Part shown: positions 1 to 21,688 of the stretch, one piece after another
Layout: every line of letters begins with the position of its first letter
How positions within the stretch are numbered: the first letter of the stretch is position 1
DNA from: Pseudobdellovibrionaceae bacterium
GTDB taxonomy: Bacteria > Bdellovibrionota > Bdellovibrionia > Bdellovibrionales > Bdellovibrionaceae
DNA: 21,688 nt
Direction of reading: 5' to 3'
Assembly (NCBI GenBank): GCA_044359815.1
Contig: JBIKLL010000044.1
Coordinates: 1 to 21,688 of the forward strand
Notes under the pieces: model-generated
The model's input: the letters and a program-made list of their open reading frames with translations, nothing else
Database searches by the model: none
What the model was told of the DNA's origin: nothing
Program-made: the position numbers and the translations under genes

Positions 1-120
1 GTGCGCTCGGGGCAGCTTGTGCAGTTGGCAAAGTAAAAGAATTCAATGATGGCAATGCTGACACTGCGGTTTGCATGGCGCCGGTTACTGCGTCTGCCAT
101 GCCTTTTGGAAACTGCGGCA
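1..120. repeat. Direct repeat, copy 1 (matches 4339-4458)
   Basis: 119/120 identical to 4339-4458 (G80 vs A4418). Probably extends beyond the window start. Confidence 0.97.
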
Positions 121-830
121 CCGGTACTATTTGTTTTATTTTTTGTTTTGGGACGATTTGTTTTCTGTATTTATAGTGAGGGCCTAGCACCCCGTGAAAC
201 CTAGTCAAATGCACCCTTGGCCTTGGCACCAGTGCTGCCAGTCTTTCCATTAGTTCCAGTGGCGTAAGTCTGATTGCAACGGTGCCGTCGTCCCAAGGTT
301 TTTTGAATTTGTAGATCACTTCCCCAGTTGCATTGGTGAAGAGTCTGTTTTCTGCAATAGCAGGACGGGCTATGTATCTGCAAATCCGTTCTAGTTTTTC
401 TCTTTCATCGGCAAGGCATGCAACTCCGGCATGCAGGGAAAATCCTGAACTTGCCACCACTAATCCTGACTTTGAGTTATGGTCACCATCGGATATGGTT
501 TTTAACACCAAGGCTTTTTTGCCTTTGGATTTACCTGTGGCAAATCTGTAAGTGACAGAGCTTGCTTGTAGTCTTGAAAATGTGTCTTCTTCATCGATTG
601 GCAGTTGGAAGTTTGCTTCGTCTTTGATGATGATTTTTTGTCGTTCCAAATAGCGTGTTAGTTTTTTTGATTATTTGCATGAGCACTTGATCCAGCTCCG
701 CACTAGTTGGTGGATCACATCTGATGAAATCAGAGGGTTCGTTGTTTTCACTGATTGCATAAGCGCCATCGATGAAGAGCTGATGGAAGTGAACATTGAG
801 ATTGAGACTTCCCCCGAATCTTTGAATCAG
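121..830 (-). mobile_element. IS91/ISCR-family rolling-circle (HUH) transposase remnant; 5'-truncated, one frameshift, C-terminus replaced
   Basis: Manual minus-strand translation: LIQRFGGSLNLNVHFHQLFIDGAY (HUH motif)...LQASSVTYRFATG...GFSLHAGV...EKLERICRYIARPAIAENRL...KKPWDDGTVAIRLTPLELMERLAALVPRPRVHLTRFHGVLGP. One extra base in the T7 run at 662-668 shifts the frame. The downstream frame runs off the window start, so the ORF track misses it. Confidence 0.93.
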
Positions 831-1460: not shown

Positions 1461-2606
1461 ATGAAAATCAATCAAGTTTGCTATCAAAATGGTAAATGGG
1501 ACAAAAAAATTCCCAGTGATCTGAATTCAAAAAATACACTTTGCTTTGCTTTCTTTGGTCCGGATGCTGTTATTGAAAAAGGTGTCACTGACTTAAAAAA
1601 ATCCTTTCCAGATTCCATGATTGTTGGATGCAGTGGTGCTGGTGAAATTTTAGGCACAAATCTAAGCGATCAATCCATGATTGTGACCGTCGCCAAATTT
1701 GAAAATTCAAAAATCAAAACTTTTCGAACCGAAATTTCATCTGCAGATAAATCATTTGCTGCAGGCGAATCTTTGGCAAAAAATTTTGATAAAAAGGATT
1801 TAAAAGCGGTTTATATTTTAAGTGAAGGTTTATTGGTAAACGGAACTGACTTAGTCAAAGGACTTCGAAATGTCCTGCCAGCAGATGTTGTCGTTTCTGG
1901 TGGACTTGCAGGCGATGGCACCCGTTTTAAAACAACTAAAATTTTATTTGATGACCAAGTACAATCCAAAGTGACCGTAGCGATTGGTTTTTACGGGGAT
2001 GAAATAACAGTCGTGTCGGGCTCAAAGGGCGGTTGGATTCCGTTTGGTCCAGAACGAAAAGTGACTAATTCTGAAGGTAACACCTTATTCACAATTGACG
2101 ATAAGCCAGCACTAACACTTTACAAAGAATTTTTGGGAAACAGTGCTGCTAATTTACCTGCATCTGCCCTTAATTTCCCACTTGAAATTCAAGAAACTAT
2201 TAACGGAAAAAGTTTTGGCATTGTGCGAACAATTTTAAGCGTAGATGAATTGAATAAAACCATGACCTTTGCCGGTGATATCCCTAAAGGAAAAATTGTT
2301 CGACTGATGCGTTCAACCCAAAAAAGTTTGGTTGAAGCTGCTACGAATTGCGCTCAAGGATTGCAAAATGAAATTTCTGATAAAACACCGGTATTAAGCT
2401 TGATCGTTTCCTGTGTGGGTCGAAGACTTGTGATGGGTTCTGGAACCGAGGACGAAATTGAATCTGTGTTTAGCATGCTGCCAAAAGGATCTATACAAAC
2501 TGGATTTTATTCTTATGGTGAATTGGCGCCTGACCAATCAGGCTTTTGTGATTTGCACAATCAAACAATGACAATCACCTGGATCCAAGAAAATAAGTCG
2601 GCATAA
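1461..2606 (+). CDS. FIST N/C domain sensory protein (NosP-like)
   Basis: Motifs GCSGAGEI, GGLAGDG, GWIPFGPERKVT, SCVGRRLV and GFYSYGELAP...LHNQTMTIT. GGAG at 1451 favours ATG 1461 over 1449. Confidence 0.9.
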   Translation: MKINQVCYQNGKWDKKIPSDLNSKNTLCFAFFGPDAVIEKGVTDLKKSFPDSMIVGCSGAGEILGTNLSDQSMIVTVAKFENSKIKTFRTEISSADKSFAAGESLAKNFDKKDLKAVYILSEGLLVNGTDLVKGLRNVLPADVVVSGGLAGDGTRFKTTKILFDDQVQSKVTVAIGFYGDEITVVSGSKGGWIPFGPERKVTNSEGNTLFTIDDKPALTLYKEFLGNSAANLPASALNFPLEIQETINGKSFGIVRTILSVDELNKTMTFAGDIPKGKIVRLMRSTQKSLVEAATNCAQGLQNEISDKTPVLSLIVSCVGRRLVMGSGTEDEIESVFSMLPKGSIQTGFYSYGELAPDQSGFCDLHNQTMTITWIQENKSA

Positions 2607-3940
2607 TGACAAATAAACGAACCCTTCTTCAAAAGTTTTTAGCAAAATCAAATCTAGCGGCTGATGTTGCGCCAAAAGCTGTTGAGGAATGGTCGCGATT
2701 TTTAAATTTAGTTAACAATCAGTTTTTGGATTTCGAAAAACGCCAAGATTTGCTTGAAAATACTTTGGCCGCATCTTCAAGCGAAATGGAAAGACTATAT
2801 ACTGAATTAAAATTGGCTGCAGAAAAAGAAAAGGAAAACAACCTTCATAAATTCGAAGTACTTTTTGATTTTTCCCCTTTGCCATTTATGTTTTTTGATG
2901 AAAATGGAATACTTGACTGCAACAAAGCAACCATCGACATCCTTGGTGGCAAAAACAAAACGGATATAATATCAAGGCATCCATCGGTTTTTTCTCCTGA
3001 GCATCAGCCCGACGGCCGTAATTCACAGGAAAAATCAATTGAAATGGATAGGCTGGCTCGTGAAAAAGGATTTCACCGTTTTGAATGGACCCAAAGAAGC
3101 CTTGATGGCAAAGAGTTTCCAGTCGAAGTCAGCATTTCTGCCGCCAGTTTTGACGAAAAAACCATTTTAATGGTTGTCTGGCGGGATTTATCAGAGATCA
3201 AAGAAAAAGATCAAATGCTTTTGCATTCATCAAAAATGTCTTCATTGGGCGAGATGGCCGGCGGTGTGGCCCACGAAATTAATAATCCCCTTGGAGTCAT
3301 TCTGGGAAAAGCAGACTTGATATTAAAAAAAATAGAATCCGGAACCTACACAAATGAATATGGGATAAGACAAATCAGCAAAATCATAGAAATGTCCGAG
3401 CGGATTACAAAAATAGTTAAAGGTCTAAAATCTTTTTCAAGAAACGCAGAAGGCGATCCCTTTTTACCAACGGAACTTAATTCGATTATCATCAACGTAT
3501 TGTCCTTGTGCGAAGAAAAATACAAAACAAATGCAATAAAAGTTGATGTTATCGTGGACAAAAATATTGTTATCGAATGTCGAAGCACCCAGATTGAGCA
3601 AGTTTTGCTAAACCTATTGAACAATTCAAGTGACGCCATTGAAAACACCCAGGAAAAATGGGTTCGCATTGAAGCCTTGGATTTAGGAGAATCAATTCAA
3701 ATTTTCGTAACCGACAGCGGCGGCGGAATCCCACCCCAAGTAGTTCAAAAATTAATGCAGCCCTTTTTTACAACAAAAGGCATCGTCCAAGGAACCGGCT
3801 TGGGTTTAAGTATTTCAAAAGGAATTATCGAAACCCACCACGGTAAATTTTTCTACGATCCAAAATCCAAAAACACACGCTTCGTCATCGAAATCCCAAA
3901 ATCCCAATCAAACTTAGGTCAAACGCCAAAAGCAGCTTAA
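2606..3940 (+). CDS. Cytoplasmic PAS-domain sensor histidine kinase
   Basis: H-box AHEINNPL, N-box QVLLNLLNNSSDA, G1 DSGGGIP, F-box PFFTTK, G2 GTGLGLSIS and a PAS region. The start overlaps the FIST stop (TAATG). Confidence 0.93.
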   Translation: MTNKRTLLQKFLAKSNLAADVAPKAVEEWSRFLNLVNNQFLDFEKRQDLLENTLAASSSEMERLYTELKLAAEKEKENNLHKFEVLFDFSPLPFMFFDENGILDCNKATIDILGGKNKTDIISRHPSVFSPEHQPDGRNSQEKSIEMDRLAREKGFHRFEWTQRSLDGKEFPVEVSISAASFDEKTILMVVWRDLSEIKEKDQMLLHSSKMSSLGEMAGGVAHEINNPLGVILGKADLILKKIESGTYTNEYGIRQISKIIEMSERITKIVKGLKSFSRNAEGDPFLPTELNSIIINVLSLCEEKYKTNAIKVDVIVDKNIVIECRSTQIEQVLLNLLNNSSDAIENTQEKWVRIEALDLGESIQIFVTDSGGGIPPQVVQKLMQPFFTTKGIVQGTGLGLSISKGIIETHHGKFFYDPKSKNTRFVIEIPKSQSNLGQTPKAA

Positions 3941-4024
3941 GCCTGAAACTAAAATCAAAATTAGCAGGGAAAAGCAAGAGCCCGCCAAAAAACAAAAGTA
4001 CTAAAATGGGTTAGTTTGTTTTAA

Positions 4025-4483
4025 CTATGCTGCGGCTTCTAGATTGCCGTAGTTTACTACTTCGTGACATTTGAATTTGAATTGTTGGCCGTGTTTGCTT
4101 TTGAAACTTAAAATTAATCCTAGATTTCCTACTAGGATTTCCACGGGTTTTTGTTCCACACCCAATGGAGGATTTGTGTAACAATGAAAAGCTAAATGGG
4201 GGCCTTCGACGCCGATCACTTTTGCCTATGGGCCTATGCCTTCGAAATCTATTACTACGTTCATTAATTTCATTAAATCAAATGTGTGTTCTCCGGTTTT
4301 TGCTACCGCTGAAGTTTGCGATGCGCTGGTTGTTGGTGGTGCGCTCGGGGCAGCTTGTGCAGTTGGCAAAGTAAAAGAATTCAATGATGGCAATGCTGAC
4401 ACTGCGGTTTGCATGGCACCGGTTACTGCGTCTGCCATGCCTTTTGGAAACTGCGGCAAATGAAATTTACCTGTTTGGGTCAA
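4025..4483 (-). pseudogene. Hypothetical gene interrupted by an in-frame TAG
   Basis: ORFs 4226-4483 and 4025-4219 are in the same frame and read ...EGIGP*AKVIGVEGPHL...NLEAAA (TAG at 4226-4228). Part of it is duplicated at 1-120. Confidence 0.6.
4339..4458. repeat. Direct repeat, copy 2
   Basis: 119/120 identical to 1-120. Confidence 0.97.

Positions 4484-5278: not shown

Positions 5279-5283
<5 letters not shown>
5135..5283. repeat. MITE-like palindromic element with 24-bp perfect terminal inverted repeats
   Basis: AACCAATCAATACAATTGAGCAAA (5135-5158) is the reverse complement of 5260-5283. There is an internal hairpin at 5209-5231. Confidence 0.8.
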
Positions 5284-5355
<72 letters not shown>

Positions 5356-16087: not shown

Positions 16088-17806
16088 ATGCAAGAGCACC
16101 ATTTACTATCTGAAATAGGTTTTTCTATAATTGGTGCTGCCGCATTTGGCATACCGGCTTTTTTCTTACGAGTCCCGTTGATGCTGGCTTATCTTTTGGC
16201 AGGAATTGTTTTGGGCCCACACATGGGATTGGGTATTATCAAAAGCGCAGAGAGTATTTCAATACTTTCTGAAATCGGATTGATTCTGCTGATGTTTATC
16301 CTTGGGCTTGAAATTGATCTGCGAAAATTAAAGCAAGCCGGAAAAGCTGTTTTGGTCAACGGGATCACTCAGTTTTTAGGATGTTGTGTTTTAGCAATTA
16401 TTTTTTTTAAAGCCTTTGGTTTTGCCAAGGATGATTTTACTTTGACCTATTTAGCTGTCGCTTGTTCTTTGTCTTCGACATTAATTGTTGTGAAGATCTT
16501 ATCTGATCAAATGATTCTTGATTCTTTGACATCCAGAATTACTTTGGGAATTTTGGTTCTGCAGGACATTTGGGCGATAGGTTTTCTGGCCCTTCAACCC
16601 AGTTTAGCTAACCTAAATGGTTCAAATTTGGCGATTTCGCTTTCAAAAGTAGCAATACTTGTTTTTTGCGCGTGGACTTTAGCACGATATGTATTGCCGA
16701 TTGTATTTTCAAGGACAGGAAAACATCCCGAACTACTATTGATTCTGGCGATGGCCTGGTGTTTTGGAATATGTGGTTTGGCAAATTATTTAAAATTGTC
16801 TCTTGAAATGGGGGCCTTGATCGCTGGAGTTTCTATTGCATCGTTTCCTTATCATCTAGATATTGCTGCAAAAATATCAAGCCTTCGAGATTTTTTTATT
16901 ACCCTATTTTTTGTGTCTTTGGGAATGCAAGTTCCTGTACCTACTTTTGAAGTGATTTCTTTATCACTATTGATCACGTTTTTTGTTTACTTGAGTCGGA
17001 CTTTAACAATTTTTCCAGTTTTATATTTTTTAAAATACGGGAACCGAGCCAGTTTTTTACCGGCTTTGAATTTGAGCCAGCTTTCTGAGTTTGCGATTGT
17101 GCTTGCGTCCCTGGGTGTCGCTTACAATCACATTCAGCCTTTTATTTTATCAGCATTTATTATTTCTATGGTTTTTACAGCGTTAATATCTTCTTTTGTG
17201 ATACCTGGAGCCCATGGTATTTATTTAAAGCTAAATCCCATTTTAATTAAGATGGGATTTAAGGATCATATTAGCTCAATTGATACAGGTTCTGGAAAGT
17301 CGAAAACACAAATAGTATTTTTAGGATTTTACCGAGATGCCAGTTCATTAATTTATGAAATGCAAAAACGCTATGCTAAGAATGTCTTGGAAGAGATTTT
17401 GGTAGTGGATTTTAATCCTGAATCCCATGTTAAATTGAAAGAACTAGGGATCAGATGTGTTTACGGAGATATTGGAAATCGAGATACTCTTAGAAATTTA
17501 GATTTAACTGAAGCAGGCTTGATATTGTGTACAATTCCTGATCAATTTTTAAAAGGCACTACAAATTTAAAACTGGTTAGGATTTTAAAATCCATGGCAC
17601 CCAGTGTCCCGTGTATTATGACTGCAGAAAAAATTGACCAAGCTCGAGAATTATACTCAGCAGGTGCCGATTACGTGCTTGTTCCGCGCATCGTAAACGC
17701 AAATTATTTAGCTGATGTTCTGGAAAGAGTTCAATCTCAAGGATCAAAAATTATTAAATCCAGTGCCGAAGAATATCTGAAGCTTCGGAGTGAAGTCATT
17801 TCTTAG
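16088..17806 (+). CDS. CPA2-family cation:proton antiporter (Kef-like) with C-terminal RCK/TrkA-N domain
   Basis: LLMFILGLEID, SLSSTLIVVKIL, GILVLQDI and QLSEFAIVL motifs, plus a C-terminal VYGD...GADYV. Confidence 0.9.
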   Translation: MQEHHLLSEIGFSIIGAAAFGIPAFFLRVPLMLAYLLAGIVLGPHMGLGIIKSAESISILSEIGLILLMFILGLEIDLRKLKQAGKAVLVNGITQFLGCCVLAIIFFKAFGFAKDDFTLTYLAVACSLSSTLIVVKILSDQMILDSLTSRITLGILVLQDIWAIGFLALQPSLANLNGSNLAISLSKVAILVFCAWTLARYVLPIVFSRTGKHPELLLILAMAWCFGICGLANYLKLSLEMGALIAGVSIASFPYHLDIAAKISSLRDFFITLFFVSLGMQVPVPTFEVISLSLLITFFVYLSRTLTIFPVLYFLKYGNRASFLPALNLSQLSEFAIVLASLGVAYNHIQPFILSAFIISMVFTALISSFVIPGAHGIYLKLNPILIKMGFKDHISSIDTGSGKSKTQIVFLGFYRDASSLIYEMQKRYAKNVLEEILVVDFNPESHVKLKELGIRCVYGDIGNRDTLRNLDLTEAGLILCTIPDQFLKGTTNLKLVRILKSMAPSVPCIMTAEKIDQARELYSAGADYVLVPRIVNANYLADVLERVQSQGSKIIKSSAEEYLKLRSEVIS

Positions 17807-17813
17807 TATTTAA

Positions 17814-18128
17814 GGAATTCTTGATGGCGTGTTGGAAGGGACTTTGACTAATAATGAAAGCTTGGTGATTGGTATTTATTTGAATGCGGTTAACATTACG
17901 GGTGTTGGGAATGGATATTTTTTAGATGGTCTGCCTGCTTCAATTTCAGCCTTATCCGGAGCTAATAACAATACTTTAATTTACTCTCCTCCTCCATTTT
18001 CTTGGATAAGTTCTAGGGCAGTAGTTATAACGGGTACGAGTGGCAAGGTATTGTCACAGACCATACCAAGTCCAGCAGCTGCTAATTCCGGGCATCGATG
18101 GCGAATATTAATGAGTTTTGGAAGATAA
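17814..18128 (+). pseudogene. Probable 3' fragment of a larger gene
   Basis: Protein-like open frame that begins right after an in-frame TAA (17811), ends at TAA 18128 and is followed by an imperfect hairpin. No family recognised. Confidence 0.35.
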
Positions 18129-18225
18129 ATAAATTTCTTACGAAAAATTCGACAGCAAGGCTATTTAACCTTGTCGCCGAGTTTGGCGCCGTTGTCTTAA
18201 GGTACTAAAGCTTAGCTTCGATTCA

Positions 18226-18903
18226 CTTTCCCCGGGGTAGAGACTGTGCGTTGGAAGTGGTTGATGGATCTGATTCTCTGTTTATTTGTATACCTAATAA
18301 TGGGACTTAAAAACAAACCGGACTCCGGACGGATAACTAGTAAATTTTAAATAAATATTTGCTTAATCAAATGAGGAATTTTAAAACAAGAATCGATGCA
18401 AAAGAAAAATATTTATATTTTAATAATAGTGATGCTGATTGGTGTTTTTTTGTGGTTTCAGATATCAAAAAATTCCGATGCCGCTAGGTCTGATAAAAAT
18501 CGAAATGAAGTTTGGGATGATGTTGAAGCAAAAATTATGGAATTAAATATTTCGGAGGATATGAAGAAAGCTCTTTTTCAGTTAGCAATAGGCCTTCAAA
18601 AGTCTTGTAGTGAACCTAAAATGAATAAAGAAAGAGCTCTAGAATTAGTTAAAGAACATGATCTTGCTCTTGGATGTATTTATGCAATTGACACAGAAAT
18701 GGCTTTGGATTTGGATTTAACTGGTAAGGTTGAAGGATGGGTAGCTAGTTCAATCGCAACCATTAGAAACTATGCAAGGTTTAATGGATTGTTGAGCGGA
18801 GGAATGTATCCATCCCCGCCTGAGACTCTAAAAAGCTGCAATTTTAAAGTAAGTGATTAAATGGTTTTTAATAGTTATTTTGTTCTCAAATATTTGTTTT
18901 GGC
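18226..18903 (+). repeat. Tandem unit copy 1 (leader + gene A + 5' end of gene B), homologous to 19533-20210
   Basis: Colinear at offset 1307. Near-identical over 18226-18587 and 18837-18903, diverged in between. Confidence 0.95.
18396..18860 (+). CDS. Membrane-anchored hypothetical protein A1 (DxNxNxVWDDVE motif)
   Basis: N-terminal TM helix and GAGGA upstream. Paralog of 19703-20167 (111/154 identical by manual count). Confidence 0.85.
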   Translation: MQKKNIYILIIVMLIGVFLWFQISKNSDAARSDKNRNEVWDDVEAKIMELNISEDMKKALFQLAIGLQKSCSEPKMNKERALELVKEHDLALGCIYAIDTEMALDLDLTGKVEGWVASSIATIRNYARFNGLLSGGMYPSPPETLKSCNFKVSD

Positions 18904-18911
18904 CGTACTAA
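18853..18911 (+). pseudogene. Internally deleted copy of the hydrolase gene B
   Basis: GTG-IKWFLIVILFSNICFG (matching 20160-20210) is joined directly to GCCGTACTAA (matching 21356-21365). Confidence 0.88.
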
Positions 18912-19162
18912 CCTGATTTTTTCATATTTAATTTAGCTTCGATTTTTTCAATGCGCTCAAGCAATGTAGCATCCTGATTCATAAGCTGCTTGAGCAGCGA
19001 GTTCATCAAAGTTTGGTAGGGAATGCCTAATTGTTTACCCTCTTTTACAAGCCATTCAAAAACATCTTCGTCTAGTCGAAATGTTTTTTGAACTTTACTG
19101 CCCTTTGGTAAAATGGGACCTTTGTGAGTTTTTGCTTTTGAAAAATCATATTCTTTCTTCAT
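18908..19162 (-). CDS. brnA: BrnA-family antitoxin
   Basis: MKKEYDFSKAK...TFRLDEDVFEWL...GIPYQTLMNSLL. Overlaps the brnT stop. Confidence 0.88.
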   Translation of the reverse strand: MKKEYDFSKAKTHKGPILPKGSKVQKTFRLDEDVFEWLVKEGKQLGIPYQTLMNSLLKQLMNQDATLLERIEKIEAKLNMKKSG

Positions 19163-19418
19163 ACATCAACCTTTCTTTTTTTGTAGCTTTGCGAGCAGAA
19201 ATGATTCGAATCACATCGCTGAATCTGTAACAGTAAACCACAACCAATAGATTTAAATGTTTTGAAAATCCTAATGCGATAAACCTGACTTCATCGTGAT
19301 CTTTGTCTTCAAGTATTAACTGCACTTCTGATTCAAGGACAGTTTGGGCTTCTTCAAACGAAATCTTGTGTTTTTTAAAATTAGCTTTGGCCTTATTTTG
19401 ATCCCAAATAACAATCAT
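19146..19418 (-). CDS. brnT: BrnT-family (DUF497) ribonuclease toxin
   Basis: WDQNKAKANFKKHKISFEEA...RFIALG...IRIISARKATKKER. ATG 19418 is preferred because ATG 19430 overlaps the -10 box. Confidence 0.9.
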   Translation of the reverse strand: MIVIWDQNKAKANFKKHKISFEEAQTVLESEVQLILEDKDHDEVRFIALGFSKHLNLLVVVYCYRFSDVIRIISARKATKKERLMYEERI

Positions 19419-19428
19419 ACTGGCTGAC

Positions 19429-19458
19429 ATAATACACTACAATGTAGTTACATTGCAA
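19429..19458 (-). promoter_or_regulatory. Putative brnTA sigma70 promoter with palindromic operator
   Basis: Minus strand TTGCAA-N18-TATTAT. The region carries ACTACA-A-TGTAGT (19436-19448) and AATGTA-GT-TACATT (19441-19454). Confidence 0.65.
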
Positions 19459-19532
19459 TAGAAAAGTGTGTGGACTTAAGGGGCAGTCATGAAACCGGCA
19501 AGTCGCTGATTAGTGGGGTAACTGCCGAGCCG

Positions 19533-20210
19533 CTTTCCCCGGGGTAGAGACAGTGCGTTGGAAGCGGTTGATGGATCTGATTTTCTGTTTATTTGTATAC
19601 CTAATAGTGGGATTTAAAAACAAATCGGACTCCGGACGGATAACCAGTAAATTTTAAATAAATATTTGCTTAATCAAATGAGGAATTTTAAAACAAGAAT
19701 CGATGCAAAAGAAAAATATTTATATTTTAATAATAGTGATGTTGATTGGTGTTTTTTCGTGGTTTCAGATATCAGAAAATTCCGATGTTATTGGGATTGA
19801 TAAAAACCGAAATGAAGTTTGGGATGATGTTGAAGCAAAAATTATGGAATTAAATATTTCGGAGGATATGAAGAAAGCTCTTTTTCAGTTAGCAGTTTCA
19901 TTTCAGAAGGCTGTTAGTGATATGAATATGAATAAAGAAAGTGCTTTGGTCATTAGTAAGGAGCAAGATCTTGCAATGGGATGTATGTATGCCATCGATA
20001 AATACGAAGCTTGGGAATTAGGTTTACTTAAAAAAGTAGAGGGGTGGGTGGCGAATACGGACGCGAAAATTAGAAACTATGTCCGGTTTAATTCTCTGTT
20101 AAGCGGAGGAGTATATGGTCGTCCACCAAGTGAAATCCAAAGTTGCAATTTTAAAGTAAATGATTAGATGGTTTTTAATAGTTATTTTGTTCTCAAATAT
20201 TTGTTTTGGC
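19533..20210 (+). repeat. Tandem unit copy 2
   Basis: Homologous to 18226-18903. Confidence 0.95.
19703..20167 (+). CDS. Membrane-anchored hypothetical protein A2
   Basis: Paralog of A1. Its stop overlaps the start of gene B. Confidence 0.87.
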   Translation: MQKKNIYILIIVMLIGVFSWFQISENSDVIGIDKNRNEVWDDVEAKIMELNISEDMKKALFQLAVSFQKAVSDMNMNKESALVISKEQDLAMGCMYAIDKYEAWELGLLKKVEGWVANTDAKIRNYVRFNSLLSGGVYGRPPSEIQSCNFKVND

Positions 20211-21365
20211 TACTGTCGGCCAACAAATGTTGCGATTTATTTTGCCAATGGAATGTTTAATTCAAGGTCAGACGCTTTAGAGTCGTATGAAAAATTGATT
20301 GATAATTTGCCAGGACCGAATTCAAAAGATTACCGAGAAGTGACACTTATTTTTCCCGGTTTAGCTTACAATACTGATGAGGCTTTGCTTTTACAGCTTT
20401 ATGAGGTTTTGGGTCAGAAACAAGGCGACCTAAAATTAAATTTTTGGATGTACCTTTCGGATTTAGTTTCTGCTCCTAAAGAGTTTATAGATTTATTTAG
20501 GTCGATTCAGGTAAATTTAGACTCTTTTGGCAATGTAGATTTAGGTATACAGATTGAAAACTATAAAAAAACATTAAATGAGCCCAATCATCACATTGTT
20601 ACGATTGCTCATTCTCAGGGAAACTTTTTTACCAACCTAGCATTTTCGAAATTGGGTATATCAGATGAAATAAAGCAGCGTTTGGATATGGTCTCAGTAG
20701 CAAATCCTGCAGGATATGTTTTTGATTGGGGGTCCTATACAACTTTGGACAGTGATTGTGTTATTAGCGCTATCCCAGGGGCTTTAAAAGCAAATGTTAC
20801 TAATGCAGGAAATGGTTATTGTGATCATTCATTAGAAGTTTATTTGAAGGGCACAGAGAGTCGACAAAAAATCATGGATGATATTGATTTCGCAATCCAT
20901 GGGCCATCAATCCAGGATAGTGTGCCCCAGCCTGTCGAGTTAAAACGGATTGCCAGATGGTATAATCATTATAAGAAAACTGAAAAACAAGATGCTTTAA
21001 AAACTCATCAATGTTTTGGCGCAAGAGTTTATCGGAGCATGTTTAATCTATACTGGAAAAATAAATCTTGTGATGAGCTAGGCTACAATGGGGTAAAGCA
21101 AGTTTTTGAAGACTGTCTTGATATTAAAAATAATACGGTCAATATGAAGGCCCCTAATCACTGCCCAGTTTCGTTCGGAAGTGAAAATGTAGCTTTAAAT
21201 TCTATGATCGCACAAGCTTTCACGGAAAATTATTTGTTTGGTGGAAAGCATCCAGAATGCGATTGGGATCGAAGAGAATTTATTAATTCTGTCTTGACCG
21301 AAGCTTTAAGCGAAGAAGCATTTAAATTTATTAAAAGCCCTTGGGATGAAATTAAGCCGTACTAA
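20160..21365 (+). CDS. Secreted alpha/beta-hydrolase (lipase-like) with Cys-rich C-terminal domain
   Basis: Signal peptide, IYFANGMFN, nucleophile elbow IAHSQG, SVANP, and candidate Asp (DSDCVI) and His (CDHSL) residues. Confidence 0.8.
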   Translation: MIRWFLIVILFSNICFGYCRPTNVAIYFANGMFNSRSDALESYEKLIDNLPGPNSKDYREVTLIFPGLAYNTDEALLLQLYEVLGQKQGDLKLNFWMYLSDLVSAPKEFIDLFRSIQVNLDSFGNVDLGIQIENYKKTLNEPNHHIVTIAHSQGNFFTNLAFSKLGISDEIKQRLDMVSVANPAGYVFDWGSYTTLDSDCVISAIPGALKANVTNAGNGYCDHSLEVYLKGTESRQKIMDDIDFAIHGPSIQDSVPQPVELKRIARWYNHYKKTEKQDALKTHQCFGARVYRSMFNLYWKNKSCDELGYNGVKQVFEDCLDIKNNTVNMKAPNHCPVSFGSENVALNSMIAQAFTENYLFGGKHPECDWDRREFINSVLTEALSEEAFKFIKSPWDEIKPY

Positions 21366-21428
21366 CCTGATTTTTCCTATTTAGTTTGGCTTCGATTCAC
21401 TTTCCCCGGGGTAGAGACAGTGCGTTGG
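21359..21428 (+). repeat. Third copy of the array junction (brnA 3' remnant + CACTTTCCCCGGGGTAGAGACAGTGCGTTGG)
   Basis: Matches 18905-18944, then 18224-18254 and 19531-19561. Confidence 0.9.
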
Positions 21429-21607
21429 GAACAATTGAAAAATCAGCCTATTTTGTTTTTTGCCAGCTGAACCAATCAAGGTTTAGACAATAAGCTTCGG
21501 TGGGGGATTCGGATGAAACTCGGTCGCCTAGCTTGTCAATAAGCTGTAAGCCAACTTTGTCAAAGTGAAAAAAAGATTTGCATTGAAATGGATTTCATAA
21601 TGATTGT

Positions 21608-21672
21608 CTTAGCTTAGCTTAGCTTAGCTTAGCTAAGCTAAGCTTAGCTTAGCTTAGCTTAGCTTAGCTTAG
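21608..21672. repeat. Pentanucleotide microsatellite (CTTAG)5(CTAAG)2(CTTAG)6
   Basis: Read directly from the sequence. Confidence 0.95.
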
Positions 21673-21688
21673 CTTTAAGCAGAGTCAT

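What the first reader, a model, noticed from the sequence alone, without database searches (positions are those of the whole stretch)
18202..21428. Modular tandem cassette array with a conserved CCCCGGGG junction and clean module gain/loss
Seen: the junction GTACTAA...GCTTCGATT|C(A/G)CTTTCCCCGGGGTAGAGAC(A/T)GTGCGTTGG occurs three times (about 18202-18254, 18905-18944 plus 19531-19561, and 21359-21428). The reconstructed full unit is leader - gene A - gene B - antisense brnTA. Unit 1 has A and the TA pair but no B body. Unit 2 has A and B but no TA pair. Junction 3 diverges immediately after GCGTTGG. Inference: this could be a recombination-driven cassette array (integron-like logic with a non-canonical site) or a tandem duplication followed by complementary deletions.
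Basis: partly seen in the sequence, partly recalled or inferred. Interest (0 to 1): 0.8.

Follow-up and report, generated by a model that had tools for sequence, protein, structure and literature searches.

The report
Tandem hydrolase-partner units, palindrome-marked junctions
The repeated junction is real, but it is a deletion scar of a toxin-antitoxin gene fused to a small palindromic repeat private to this predator's genome. The array is best read as stacked, partly deleted copies of one two-gene unit rather than as an integron.

Summary
Observation confirmed. The junction occurs three times, and a 678-nt leader + gene A + start-of-B block is duplicated. Independent lake-metagenome contigs bridge every junction at 100% identity.

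The integron reading is not supported:
- No integron integrase was found; the only two tyrosine recombinases are Xer-like and lie on other contigs.
- The junctions do not fold like attC.
- The units are homologous alleles, not unrelated cassettes.

"Module loss" is ordinary deletion. B was lost by a 1147-nt frameshifting deletion. The brnTA loss left the last ~33 nt of brnA as a scar, seen at junctions 1 and 3.

The array lies in a ~4-kb islet at the 3' end of metG, flanked by a 55-65-nt direct repeat. An empty-site allele exists in one run.

New points:
- A is predicted to bind B, a Ser-Asp-His hydrolase, through exactly the part that differs between A1 and A2.
- The CCCCGGGG core belongs to a palindromic repeat family not found in 181 relatives and associated with DUF222-HNH nuclease genes.

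The scan noted hairpin-repeat junctions in another Bdellovibrio-like genome; that repeat family does not match here.

The parts
18132..18196 (-). Orphan copy of the 3' end of metG (last 12 codons, stop and downstream hairpin). It is the left direct repeat of the islet.
   Evidence: 94% identical over 65 nt to C79:552-616, with a 55-nt core of 54/55. C79:581-2593(-) is MetG by Pfam.
18197..18223 (.). Junction 1, left half. TTAAG, then GTACTAA (the last 7 nt of a B gene, 18202-18208), then AGC, then TTAGCTTCGATT (a 12-nt remnant of the brnA 3' end, 18212-18223).
   Evidence: Read. The same GCTTCGATT|CACTTT fusion occurs in junction 3.
18224..18259 (+). M1, an interrupted palindrome. Left arm CACTTTCC, a 21-nt loop containing CCGGGG, right arm GGAAGTG.
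18260..18395 (+). Leader 1, the non-coding stretch upstream of A1.
   Evidence: About 95% identical to 19568-19702.
18396..18860 (+). A1, a 154-aa membrane-anchored partner protein that is orphaned because its B is deleted.
   Evidence: ORF. No Pfam or NCBIfam family. 72% identical to A2. Homologs sit upstream of B in 8 relatives.
18853..18911 (+). Stub of B. The first 51 nt are fused out of frame to the last 8 nt; the equivalent of 20211-21357 (1147 nt) is missing, with 2 nt (GC) shared at the joint.
   Evidence: (D4, D11).
18908..19162 (-). brnA antitoxin gene. Its last 33 nt (18912-18944) are the sequence that recurs as a scar at junction 3 and, shortened, at junction 1.
   Evidence: Pfam BrnA_antitoxin, 34.3 bits against a cut-off of 26.1. 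The C-terminal tail is conserved in the BrnA of relative G029.
19146..19430 (-). brnT toxin gene, overlapping brnA. A promoter-like site and a conserved inverted repeat lie at 19429-19470.
   Evidence: Pfam BrnT_toxin, 98.1 bits against a cut-off of 34.5. Promoter scan; alignment to G029.
19530..19567 (+). M2. Same core as M1, but both arms are changed in a complementary way (CCGCTTTCC ... GGAAGCGG).
19568..19702 (+). Leader 2.
19703..20167 (+). A2, the partner protein of the intact unit.
   Evidence: Predicted to bind B: ipSAE 0.89 in three runs, best of 3 controls 0.00.
20160..21365 (+). B, a 401-aa secreted alpha/beta-hydrolase-like protein. Invariant Ser152 (in AHSQGN), Asp199 and His223, plus the FANGMFN loop.
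   Evidence: Weak cutinase and lipase fold matches.
21366..21397 (-). Junction 3, left half. A scar of the brnA 3' end (32 nt, one base missing), directly after the B stop codon.
   Evidence: 21356-21397 against 18902-18944: 90.7% over 43 columns.
21398..21432 (+). M3. Core identical to M2 over 29 nt, with the right arm degenerate. The array ends here.
21604..21675 (.). (AGCTT)n microsatellite at the contig end. The islet continues on contig C79 (a small secreted-protein gene, a terminator and the right direct repeat at C79:552-616).

Best explanation
The region is a strain-variable islet of about 4 kb. It is inserted at the 3' end of metG and flanked by a 55-65-nt direct repeat. Inside it, a unit of palindrome M, leader, gene A, gene B and an antisense brnTA pair is stacked head to tail at least two and a bit times.

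Genes:
- B is a secreted Ser-Asp-His hydrolase.
- A is its membrane-anchored binding partner. I read A as a self-protection (immunity-like) or chaperone protein.
- brnTA is an addiction module picked up by this lineage.

How the copies came to differ:
- Ordinary recombination and deletion, not excision of cassettes by a site-specific enzyme.
- B of unit 1 went in one out-of-frame 1147-nt deletion.
- brnTA went in one ~586-nt deletion that left the end of brnA as a scar. That scarred junction was then copied, giving junctions 1 and 3.
- A1 and A2 are old, diverged alleles whose flanks have been homogenised by gene conversion or brought together by recombination between strains.

The conserved CCCCGGGG core (M):
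- It is not an attC.
- It is one member of a repeat family built on the palindrome CACTTTCCCCGGGGAAAGTG. Neither M nor that palindrome was found in 181 relatives of the family; the 18-nt palindrome does recur in unrelated bacteria elsewhere.
- It travels with the unit as short, hairpin-prone homology.

Shown: the anatomy, the scars, the mosaic, the direct repeat, the empty site, and the conserved A-B pairing.
Inferred: the order of events, what A does to B, and any role of M.
For: 1. Structure and population support. Logan contigs from 4 runs bridge all the junctions.

2. The left half of the junction is brnA coding sequence.
- BrnA of relative G029 ends ...LEAKLNVKKSG; the window's BrnA ends ...IEAKLNMKKSG.
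- The DNA aligns through CTAACC...GCTTCGA.
- Junction 3 keeps 32 nt of this sequence, with a 1-nt loss.

3. The B deletion is 1147 nt, is not a multiple of 3, and shares only GC at the joint (D4/D11).

4. Mosaic between the units:

| Segment | Differences |
|---|---|
| 18226-18587 | 18/362 |
| 18588-18831 | 90/244 |
| 18832-18903 | 3/72 |

- Fisher p = 1e-26 for the middle segment against the two flanks.
- dS is 0.09 for codons 1-64 and 1.79 for codons 65-146, with dN/dS 0.20.

5. A-B is an old two-gene module.
- B was found in 11 of 181 relatives.
- In 8 of the 8 best-matching relatives' B loci (L025-L032), an A homolog lies directly upstream of B.
- None of the three loci read in full (L025-L027) has brnTA beside it.

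6. Predicted A2-B complex.
- ipSAE 0.89/0.89/0.88, best of 3 controls 0.00, partner pLDDT 90, and the runs agree in at least 99% of contacts.
- The mark was reached by 116 of 157 solved complexes and 2 of 215 mismatched pairs.
- A's interface is residues 85-141, the diverged part.

7. Islet.
- Direct repeat.
- A 2079-nt contig of run X4 runs from 17600 to 18196 and straight on into the metG side of C79. This is an empty site.

8. No recombinase for a cassette system.
- Two Xer-like tyrosine recombinases lie on contigs C96 and C26; the integron-integrase model scores 123.5 and 80.2 bits against a cut-off of 265.
- No resolvase and no IS110 transposase.
- Junction folds are no better than shuffles: z from -0.16 to +1.38 in the 6 junction folds.
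Against: - The same brnTA-less fusion (GCTTCGATT|CACTTT) stands at two places, and a piece of a third unit precedes unit 1. The history therefore needs more steps than one duplication plus two deletions.
- M2 cannot be the direct parent of the M in junctions 1 and 3. It differs at 3 adjacent bases of the left arm, and the right arm carries the complementary change. This suggests the arms pair or are read as a symmetric site, so M may be more than a passenger.
- Related palindromes sit exactly at the edges of duplicated segments around other modules. On C88 these are a brnTA-like pair and a HEPN/MNT pair. On C99 it is a secreted-protein gene.
- The assembly is 91% complete, so a recombinase could be missing.
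- Contigs cannot show rare circles or alternative joints. None was seen, but that is not evidence of absence.
- Adjacency of C30 and C79 rests on a 48-nt overlap through a microsatellite plus the X4 empty-site contig.
Confidence: 0.6

Rival explanations
1. Nuclease-linked palindrome system. M and its parent palindrome are the cognate DNA sites of one subfamily of DUF222-HNH endonucleases. Cuts at these sites provoke repair that duplicates, deletes or inserts neighbouring modules, so unit boundaries fall at the palindrome. The window's array is one product of this.
For: Association with the HNH genes:
- 3 of the 9 M copies lie inside three paralogous DUF222-HNH genes, in the linker just before the HNH domain.
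- All 3 of these genes also have family members 250-630 nt upstream. C8 has two M copies. C19 has two copies of a sister palindrome. C48 has one degenerate copy.
- A second HNH subfamily (C120) shows the same layout with a different palindrome: two copies upstream and one in the linker.

Other points:
- The arms of M2 carry a compensatory change.
- Palindromes lie at the edges of the 133-nt and 83-nt direct repeats around modules on C88 and C99.
- Neither M nor the perfect palindrome was found in 181 relatives of the family.
Against: - No activity or binding was tested.
- The three HNH upstream regions are paralogous, so this is one association by descent, not three.
- In relatives, 0 of the 11 DUF222-HNH loci I could parse (of 19 fetched) had a palindrome both upstream and inside the gene. 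Only 3 had any upstream palindrome with arms of 8 nt or more.
- The B deletion has no palindrome at its ends, and the islet's direct repeat lacks the motif.
- Palindromes on C8:13935 and C67 border no duplicated module.
Confidence: 0.2
2. Integron-like cassette array. M, alone or with its left neighbour, is a non-canonical attC, and units are inserted and excised by an integron-type tyrosine recombinase.
For: - Head-to-tail modules are separated by a repeated junction with a palindromic core.
- Toxin-antitoxin cassettes are common in chromosomal integrons (recalled).
Against: - There is no integron integrase. The only two tyrosine recombinases score best as XerC/XerD and far below the integron models' cut-offs, and they lie on other contigs.
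- The junction strands fold no better than shuffles.
- The recalled core consensus is missed by one base on each side.
- The left half of the junction is a gene remnant.
- The cargo units are alleles of each other, and brnTA is antisense with its own promoter.
Confidence: 0.03
3. Xer-dependent (dif-module-like) shuffling. The palindromes are extra Xer sites, and the host's XerC/XerD move the small modules, as proposed for dif modules of Acinetobacter plasmids.
For: - The only tyrosine recombinases in the assembly are Xer-like.
- dif modules are small, often carry toxin-antitoxin genes and have no recombinase of their own (listing and abstracts of PMC6449649, PMC13141974 and PMC7399989).
Against: - The palindrome is a 20-nt perfect palindrome with a G+C core, not a two-armed 28-bp site.
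- In M the right arm is displaced by about 15 nt.
- The three M copies are all direct, not in inverted pairs.
- My crude search found no dif-like site at all with up to 8 mismatches of 28, so the comparison is weak.
Confidence: 0.05
4. Assembly artefact. Two strain variants of one A-B locus were stitched in tandem by the assembler.
For: - The genome is a metagenome-assembled draft of 125 contigs.
- A1 and A2 look like alleles.
Against: - Independent contigs from four runs carry the unit-to-unit joints with 0 mismatches. These are 18874-19675 in X1 and X2, 18501-19505 in X3, and 19066-19741 in X4.
- They also carry both outer joints.
Confidence: 0.03

Closest known systems
Orphan immunity or partner genes beside an effector-immunity pair in polymorphic-toxin loci (CDI, Rhs, T6SS arrays; recalled from my own knowledge). 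In this clade, also the self-protection proteins of predatory enzymes (Bd3460; abstract of PMC4686830).
   Same: - There is an intact enzyme-plus-partner pair next to an extra partner gene whose cognate enzyme is gone.
- The partners differ in the predicted contact surface.
- The pair is conserved as adjacent, overlapping genes.
   Different: - B has a Sec-type signal peptide and an alpha/beta-hydrolase triad.
- No secretion-system or toxin-delivery domain is present.
- A lies upstream of B.
- Neither toxicity nor protection has been shown.
- The family has no Pfam or NCBIfam model.
Integron cassette arrays and integrase-less attC clusters
   Same: - Modules stand head to tail with a repeated junction.
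- A toxin-antitoxin module lies inside the array.
   Different: - No IntI and no attC fold or cores.
- The junction is partly a gene scar.
- The units are homologous to one another.
Hairpin repeats that surround variable genes: Neisseria dRS3/NTS with Ssn nucleases (PMC11893778; sections 6, 7 and 17 read), and REP elements with RAYT transposases (recalled).
   Same: - A short hairpin-forming repeat, specific to a lineage, clusters around accessory genes and flanks a nuclease gene family.
   Different: - 0 of the 7 tested copies match the SRM search motif.
- The genome-wide SRM count (11) is near the shuffles (4-9).
- There is no small GIY-YIG gene.
- The one RAYT-like gene is flanked by a different inverted repeat.
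- The candidate partner here is a DUF222-HNH protein.
dif modules of Acinetobacter plasmids (abstracts only)
   Same: - Small modules, including toxin-antitoxin pairs, are bounded by short palindromic sites without a recombinase of their own.
   Different: - The site is not dif-like.
- The copies are direct rather than inverted.
- The setting is chromosomal.
- There is no evidence for Xer action.
Plasmid partition sites of SopB/ParB-type proteins in alpha-proteobacteria
   Same: - The identical 18-nt palindrome stands next to a SopB_HTH ParB gene at 5 of 5 alpha-proteobacterial loci. At 3 of these a RepA initiator gene follows it. In those genomes it occurs singly or in pairs.
   Different: - This genome has one ParB, with an ordinary parS-like site beside it, and no SopB_HTH protein.
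- The shared sequence may be convergence on a simple palindrome.

Membership tests
Integron (IntI, attI, attC cassettes) | Integron-type tyrosine recombinase near the array | tested here: not met
   PF00589 gives 2 hits in the genome, on C96 and C26. Their best NCBIfam models are XerC and XerD. The integron-integrase model TIGR02249 scores 123.5 and 80.2 bits against a cut-off of 265. The assembly is 91% complete.
Integron (IntI, attI, attC cassettes) | attC: a 57-141-nt imperfect palindrome that folds as a single-strand hairpin | tested here: not met
   The three junctions were folded on both strands as DNA. Energies were -3.3 to -7.7 kcal/mol and z from -0.16 to +1.38 against 200 shuffles.
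Integron (IntI, attI, attC cassettes) | Core sites at the cassette boundary (consensus recalled, not from a call) | tested here: not met
   Read. The GTTGGAA/GTTGGGA and TTCCAAC/TCCCAAC candidates each miss the recalled consensus at one position. Homology ends after GTTGG, not between G and TT.
Integron (IntI, attI, attC cassettes) | Unrelated, mostly promoterless cassettes | tested here: not met
   Units 1 and 2 align over 678 nt with no indel. brnTA is antisense and has a promoter-like site of its own.
Type II toxin-antitoxin BrnT/BrnA | BrnT toxin and BrnA antitoxin domains in overlapping genes | tested here: met
   BrnT_toxin scores 98.1 bits (cut-off 34.5) and BrnA_antitoxin 34.3 bits (cut-off 26.1). 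The genes overlap at 19146-19162.
Ssn nuclease / NTS-SRM hairpin repeats | The repeat matches the published degenerate SRM motif | tested here: not met
   0 of 7 tested copies (4 palindromes, 3 M) match. The genome has 11 matches against 9, 4 and 7 in shuffles (motif taken from section 17 of PMC11893778).
Ssn nuclease / NTS-SRM hairpin repeats | A small GIY-YIG ssnA gene flanked by the repeat | tested here: not met
   The only GIY-YIG hit lies in a 650-aa open frame on C16; I take it to be UvrC by size, which was not checked.
REP elements with a RAYT transposase | A Y1 (HUH) transposase gene flanked by the cognate palindromes | tested here: not met
   There are 9 Y1_Tnp hits. The single RAYT-like gene (C8:9768) is flanked by a different 26-nt inverted repeat. 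The 8 copies of a 206-aa family have other flanks.
Xer-dependent dif modules | A two-armed 28-bp Xer site, with modules between inverted pairs of sites | tested here: inconclusive
   The M copies are all direct and the palindrome is a 20-nt perfect palindrome. My search for this genome's own dif site found nothing usable.
ParB/SopB partition site | A cognate ParB-family gene beside or in the same replicon as the palindrome | tested here: not met
   This holds at 5 of 5 alpha-proteobacterial loci. In this genome there is 1 ParB_N hit, on C33, with a parS-like site beside it, and 0 SopB_HTH hits.
Enzyme with cognate protective or partner protein (immunity-like pair) | Conserved adjacency of the two genes | tested here: met
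   An A homolog lies directly upstream of B in 8 of the 8 best-matching relatives' B loci (L025-L032).
Enzyme with cognate protective or partner protein (immunity-like pair) | The two proteins bind | tested here: met
   This is a prediction only. ipSAE is 0.89, the best of 3 controls is 0.00, partner pLDDT is 90, and the runs agree in at least 99% of contacts. The mark was reached by 116 of 157 solved complexes and 2 of 215 mismatched pairs, and my own alignments were used. The model supports binding; it does not show it.
Enzyme with cognate protective or partner protein (immunity-like pair) | B is harmful to the producer and A neutralises it | not testable with these tools
   This needs expression of B with and without A1 or A2.
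Alpha/beta-hydrolase (lipase or cutinase-like) | Ser-Asp-His triad on an alpha/beta fold | tested here: inconclusive
   Ser152, Asp199 and His223 are invariant in 8 sequences. The AF2 model has pLDDT 67.6. The best Foldseek match is a cutinase-like protein at E 6.7e-3, and no match reaches E <= 1e-3. There is no Pfam or NCBIfam hit.

The most novel reading that the evidence does not exclude
The CCCCGGGG junction core is the DNA site of a private DUF222-HNH endonuclease subfamily.
- These selfish nuclease genes carry their own site twice, upstream of the gene and in the linker before the HNH domain.
- They seed solo copies around the genome.
- Breaks at those copies drive duplication, deletion and insertion of small accessory modules (toxin-antitoxin pairs, secreted-protein genes).
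- The result is integron-like arrays made without any integrase.

This would give a function and a mobility logic to the DUF222-HNH (13E12-type) family, which is multicopy in 100 of 181 relatives searched.
Probability: 0.12. Interest if true: 0.75.

Novelty: new member of a known kind. Interest (0 to 1): 0.4.

Why it matters
For the array itself, the lesson is cautionary. A very clean-looking 'cassette junction' can be a deletion scar of a neighbouring gene fused to a small dispersed repeat. Stacked units can be old alleles kept alike at their edges by recombination.

Three things are worth keeping.

1. An uncharacterised secreted hydrolase of Bdellovibrio-like predators comes with a conserved partner protein. 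That partner is predicted to cover the region around the active-site loop. This strain keeps a second, orphan partner of different specificity, which is a testable case of self-protection or inter-strain immunity in a predator.

2. The islet is polymorphic in natural lake populations, so gain and loss can be followed in the wild.

3. The junction core ties into a palindromic repeat family not found in 181 relatives. The family is physically associated with DUF222-HNH nuclease genes, whose biology is unknown.

Tried and rejected
**Searches for a known RNA or repeat family**
- Rfam at gathering thresholds over the whole window, and at E <= 5 over 17800-21688. Only a tRNA-Met at 5282-5355 and chance hits to eukaryotic families on the microsatellite.
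- ARAGORN found no tRNA or tmRNA fragment at the junctions.
- Ssn/NTS, RAYT/REP, IS110, serine recombinase and SopB/ParB partners were all negative for this genome.
- A dif-like search typed from a recalled motif gave only hits with 8 mismatches of 28, which are uninformative.

**Searches for the motif elsewhere**
- A metagenome-contig scan with a degenerate 21-nt core gave 12 loci. None shares the flanks and their G+C is 0.44-0.65, so I take them as chance.
- A DNA search of 40 relatives with 17000-21688 matched only brnTA, the upstream transporter gene and a piece of A. No relative from the same genus is held.

**Read laying**
- No joints, circles or alternative joined forms were reported among Logan contigs of 4 runs.
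- Cover over 18197-18873 is low or absent in run X4, and part of A2/B is uncovered in run X3. Contigs drop rare forms and a hole proves nothing, so I draw nothing from this.
- No RNA run holds the stretch, so expression is untested.

**Other checks**
- The promoter and terminator scan gave fewer promoter-like sites than shuffles (6 against 12.6) and placed none upstream of A.
- The small secreted protein on C79 is not related to A (hhalign probability 0.25%).
- I first thought the M core was simply a fragment of an HNH gene. I dropped that reading. Five of the 6 solo copies carry at least part of a left arm that the gene copies lack, and the family includes a perfect palindrome.
- Among DUF222-HNH genes of relatives, the idea that the family as a whole has an upstream-plus-internal palindrome found no support: 0 of 11 parsed loci.

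Full report
**What is there.** The window is a whole contig (C30) of a 125-contig, 2.95-Mb draft genome, 91% complete.

- The core CTTTCCCCGGGGTAGAGAC(A/T)GTGCGTTGG occurs at 18226, 19533 and 21400, and nowhere else in the genome as an exact string.
- 18226-18903 is repeated at 19533-20210 without any indel, 84.6% identity.
- The layout is: junction 1, leader, A1, a stub of B, antisense brnA-brnT, junction core 2, leader, A2, complete B, junction 3.
- Contigs assembled independently from four lake-water metagenome runs lie on the region with 0-1 mismatches and bridge each joint. The structure is therefore not an assembly artefact.

**What the junction is made of.** It is composite.

- The left half (CCTGATTTTT...TTAGCTTCGATT) is the 3' end of brnA read on the other strand.
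  - In unit 1 it is the real end of the gene (18912-18944).
  - The BrnA of a relative from another family (G029, whose brnTA is 73% identical in DNA) ends with the same peptide tail and aligns through this stretch.
- Junction 3 keeps 32 nt of it, with one base lost, fused to the core at GCTTCGATT|CACTTT. Junction 1 has the same fusion but keeps only 12 nt, preceded by the last 7 nt of a B gene.
- The brnTA-less junction is therefore a deletion scar, about 586 nt removed, that was later copied. It is not an empty insertion site.
- The missing body of B in unit 1 is likewise a plain deletion: 1147 nt, out of frame, with only GC shared at the joint (D4/D11).

**The units are old alleles with young edges.** Differences between the units are 18/362 in core + leader + the first 64 codons of A, 90/244 in the rest of A, and 3/72 at the end of A and start of B (Fisher p = 1e-26). 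Synonymous divergence is 0.09 in codons 1-64 and 1.79 in codons 65-146, with dN/dS 0.20. This is what gene conversion of the flanks would give, or the stacking of two diverged alleles by recombination in conserved flanks. It is not recent duplication followed by diversifying selection.

**What A and B are.**

- Neither has a Pfam or NCBIfam family.
- B was found in 11 of 181 relatives of the family.
- In each of the 8 best-matching relatives' B loci (L025-L032), an A-like gene of 147-176 aa lies directly upstream. None of the three loci read in full (L025-L027) has brnTA beside it.
- B has a signal peptide and invariant FANGMFN, AHSQGN (Ser152), Asp199 and His223.
- Feature and fold look-alikes are alpha/beta hydrolases, cutinases and lipases, but only weakly. 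The best Foldseek E-value is 6.7e-3, and the model pLDDT is 67.6.
- The complex test supports binding of A2 to B.
  - ipSAE is 0.89, 0.89 and 0.88, with the best of 3 controls at 0.00. Partner pLDDT is 90, and the runs agree in at least 99% of contacts.
  - The mark was reached by 116 of 157 solved complexes and 2 of 215 mismatched pairs. My own alignments were used, so those counts hold only roughly.
  - The contact residues of A (85-141) are the anciently diverged part. Those of B (27-134) include the loop after FANGMFN.
- I read A as a cognate protective or chaperone partner, and A1 as an orphan partner of a lost B allele. Self-protection proteins for predatory enzymes are known in Bdellovibrio (abstract of PMC4686830).

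**The setting.**

- 18132-18196 is a copy of the last 12 codons of metG plus its downstream hairpin. The real metG lies on contig C79, which overlaps the end of C30 by 48 nt through an (AGCTT)n microsatellite.
- The stretch between the two copies, about 4 kb, holds the array plus a small secreted-protein gene.
- In run X4 a 2079-nt contig passes from the window's left flank through 18196 straight into the metG side. An allele without the islet therefore exists.
- No integrase lies on C30 or in the first 6 kb of C79. A Y2-transposase fragment at 2-649 is 17 kb away.

**The core belongs to a repeat family.**

- With mismatches allowed, the core has 9 copies.
  - Three are in the window.
  - Two are upstream of a DUF222-HNH gene on C8.
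  - One is at the end of an ORF on C67.
  - One is inside each of three paralogous DUF222-HNH genes (C8, C19, C48), in the linker just before the HNH domain.
- The genome also holds 8 copies of the perfect palindrome CACTTTCCCCGGGGAAAGTG.
- The solo copies of the core are this palindrome with about 15 nt set between the centre and the right arm.
- In M2 both arms are changed in a complementary way.
- Neither the core nor the palindrome was found in 181 relatives of the family.
- Elsewhere, the 18-nt palindrome turns up in unrelated bacteria.
  - At 5 of 5 alpha-proteobacterial loci it lies beside a SopB-type ParB gene, and at 3 of these a RepA gene follows it.
  - There are 8 intergenic copies in one Elusimicrobia genome.
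  - In Erysipelotrichaceae genomes it lies inside a conserved repeat; the same repeat sits beside an IS110 transposase gene in a Lachnospiraceae genome.
- This genome has one ordinary ParB and no SopB-like protein.

**Does the family mark module boundaries elsewhere?** Partly.

- On C88, four palindromes bracket a second brnTA-like pair and a HEPN/MNT pair between lysA and a guaC-like gene. A 133-nt direct repeat (91%) begins at the palindrome's edge. In its left copy it holds a remnant of the HEPN gene's 3' end, the same scar logic as in the window.
- On C99, an 83-nt direct repeat (86.7%) ending at the palindrome's edge flanks a secreted-protein gene.
- Other copies (C8:13935, C67) border nothing of the kind.

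**Link to the nuclease genes.**

- All three HNH genes that contain the core also have family members 250-630 nt upstream.
- A different HNH paralog (C120) has its own palindrome twice upstream and once in the same linker position.
- These upstream regions are paralogous, so the support is less than it looks.
- In relatives I found no such layout in any of the 11 parsed loci (of 19 fetched).
- DUF222-HNH genes are multicopy in 100 of 181 relatives.

**Known systems tested and not met.**

| System | Result |
|---|---|
| Integron | No IntI, no attC fold, cores missed |
| Ssn/NTS | 0 of 7 copies match the published motif; no small GIY-YIG gene |
| REP/RAYT | The RAYT-like gene has other flanking repeats |
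| IS110 and serine recombinases | None found |
| dif modules | All copies direct, site unlike a Xer site; my dif search was uninformative |

**Verdict.** This is a real, population-supported tandem array of an enzyme-partner unit with a toxin-antitoxin pair, in a polymorphic islet. Its 'clean' module differences are ordinary deletions, and its junction is a scar plus a small palindromic repeat. The integron reading fails. Two things remain open: whether the palindrome family is only a passenger, and whether the DUF222-HNH nucleases act on it.

Noticed in passing
window 21604-21675; L053 (C29) 1164-1203; L004 (C79) 1-36: An (AGCTT)n pentanucleotide microsatellite lies about 50-120 nt upstream of small secreted-protein genes at two loci, and the flanks are 75% alike over 87 nt. 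It breaks the assembly. It could be a phase-variable promoter spacer. Junction 1 holds two units of the same pentamer.
   Followed up: partly
L048 (C88:4500-11500) 2497-4480: A second array lies between lysA and a guaC-like gene: a brnTA-like pair and a HEPN/MNT pair, each bounded by the perfect palindrome. It has 133-nt and 106-nt direct repeats and a remnant of the HEPN 3' end.
   Followed up: partly
L048 4311-4408 and at least 17 other places in the genome: A MITE-like dispersed repeat of about 100 nt with inverted ends. One copy sits between two palindromes on C88.
   Followed up: no
G000 contigs C120 (4337, 5300, 5368), C28 (6364), C19 (178, 324): Several DUF222-HNH paralogs each have their own palindrome 260-405 nt upstream of the start. 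In C120 the same palindrome also lies in the linker before the HNH domain, where it encodes TATVAV.
   Followed up: partly
G000 contigs C23, C48, C56, C47, C49, C100, C125, C8: Eight near-identical copies of a gene for a 206-aa Y1 (HUH) transposase-like protein share a conserved upstream region. Several lie next to microsatellites.
   Followed up: no
L050 (C68) end and L002 (C19) start: C68 ends and C19 begins in the same (AGTT)n microsatellite. If the two contigs join, a third palindrome lies upstream of the C19 HNH gene.
   Followed up: no
window 17829-18128: A 99-codon open frame in the 325-nt spacer between the Na+/H+ exchanger gene and the metG repeat has no family and no homolog. It is probably not a gene.
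   Followed up: no
window 2-649 (-): A fragment of a Y2 (IS91-type) transposase lies at the contig start. A tRNA-Met gene lies at 5279-5355.
   Followed up: no
L077, L086-L088, L091, L093, L104 (Elusimicrobia genome record): Eight intergenic copies of the same 18-nt palindrome, each inside a longer inverted repeat, lie between housekeeping genes (for example gidA and gidB). No cause is known.
   Followed up: no
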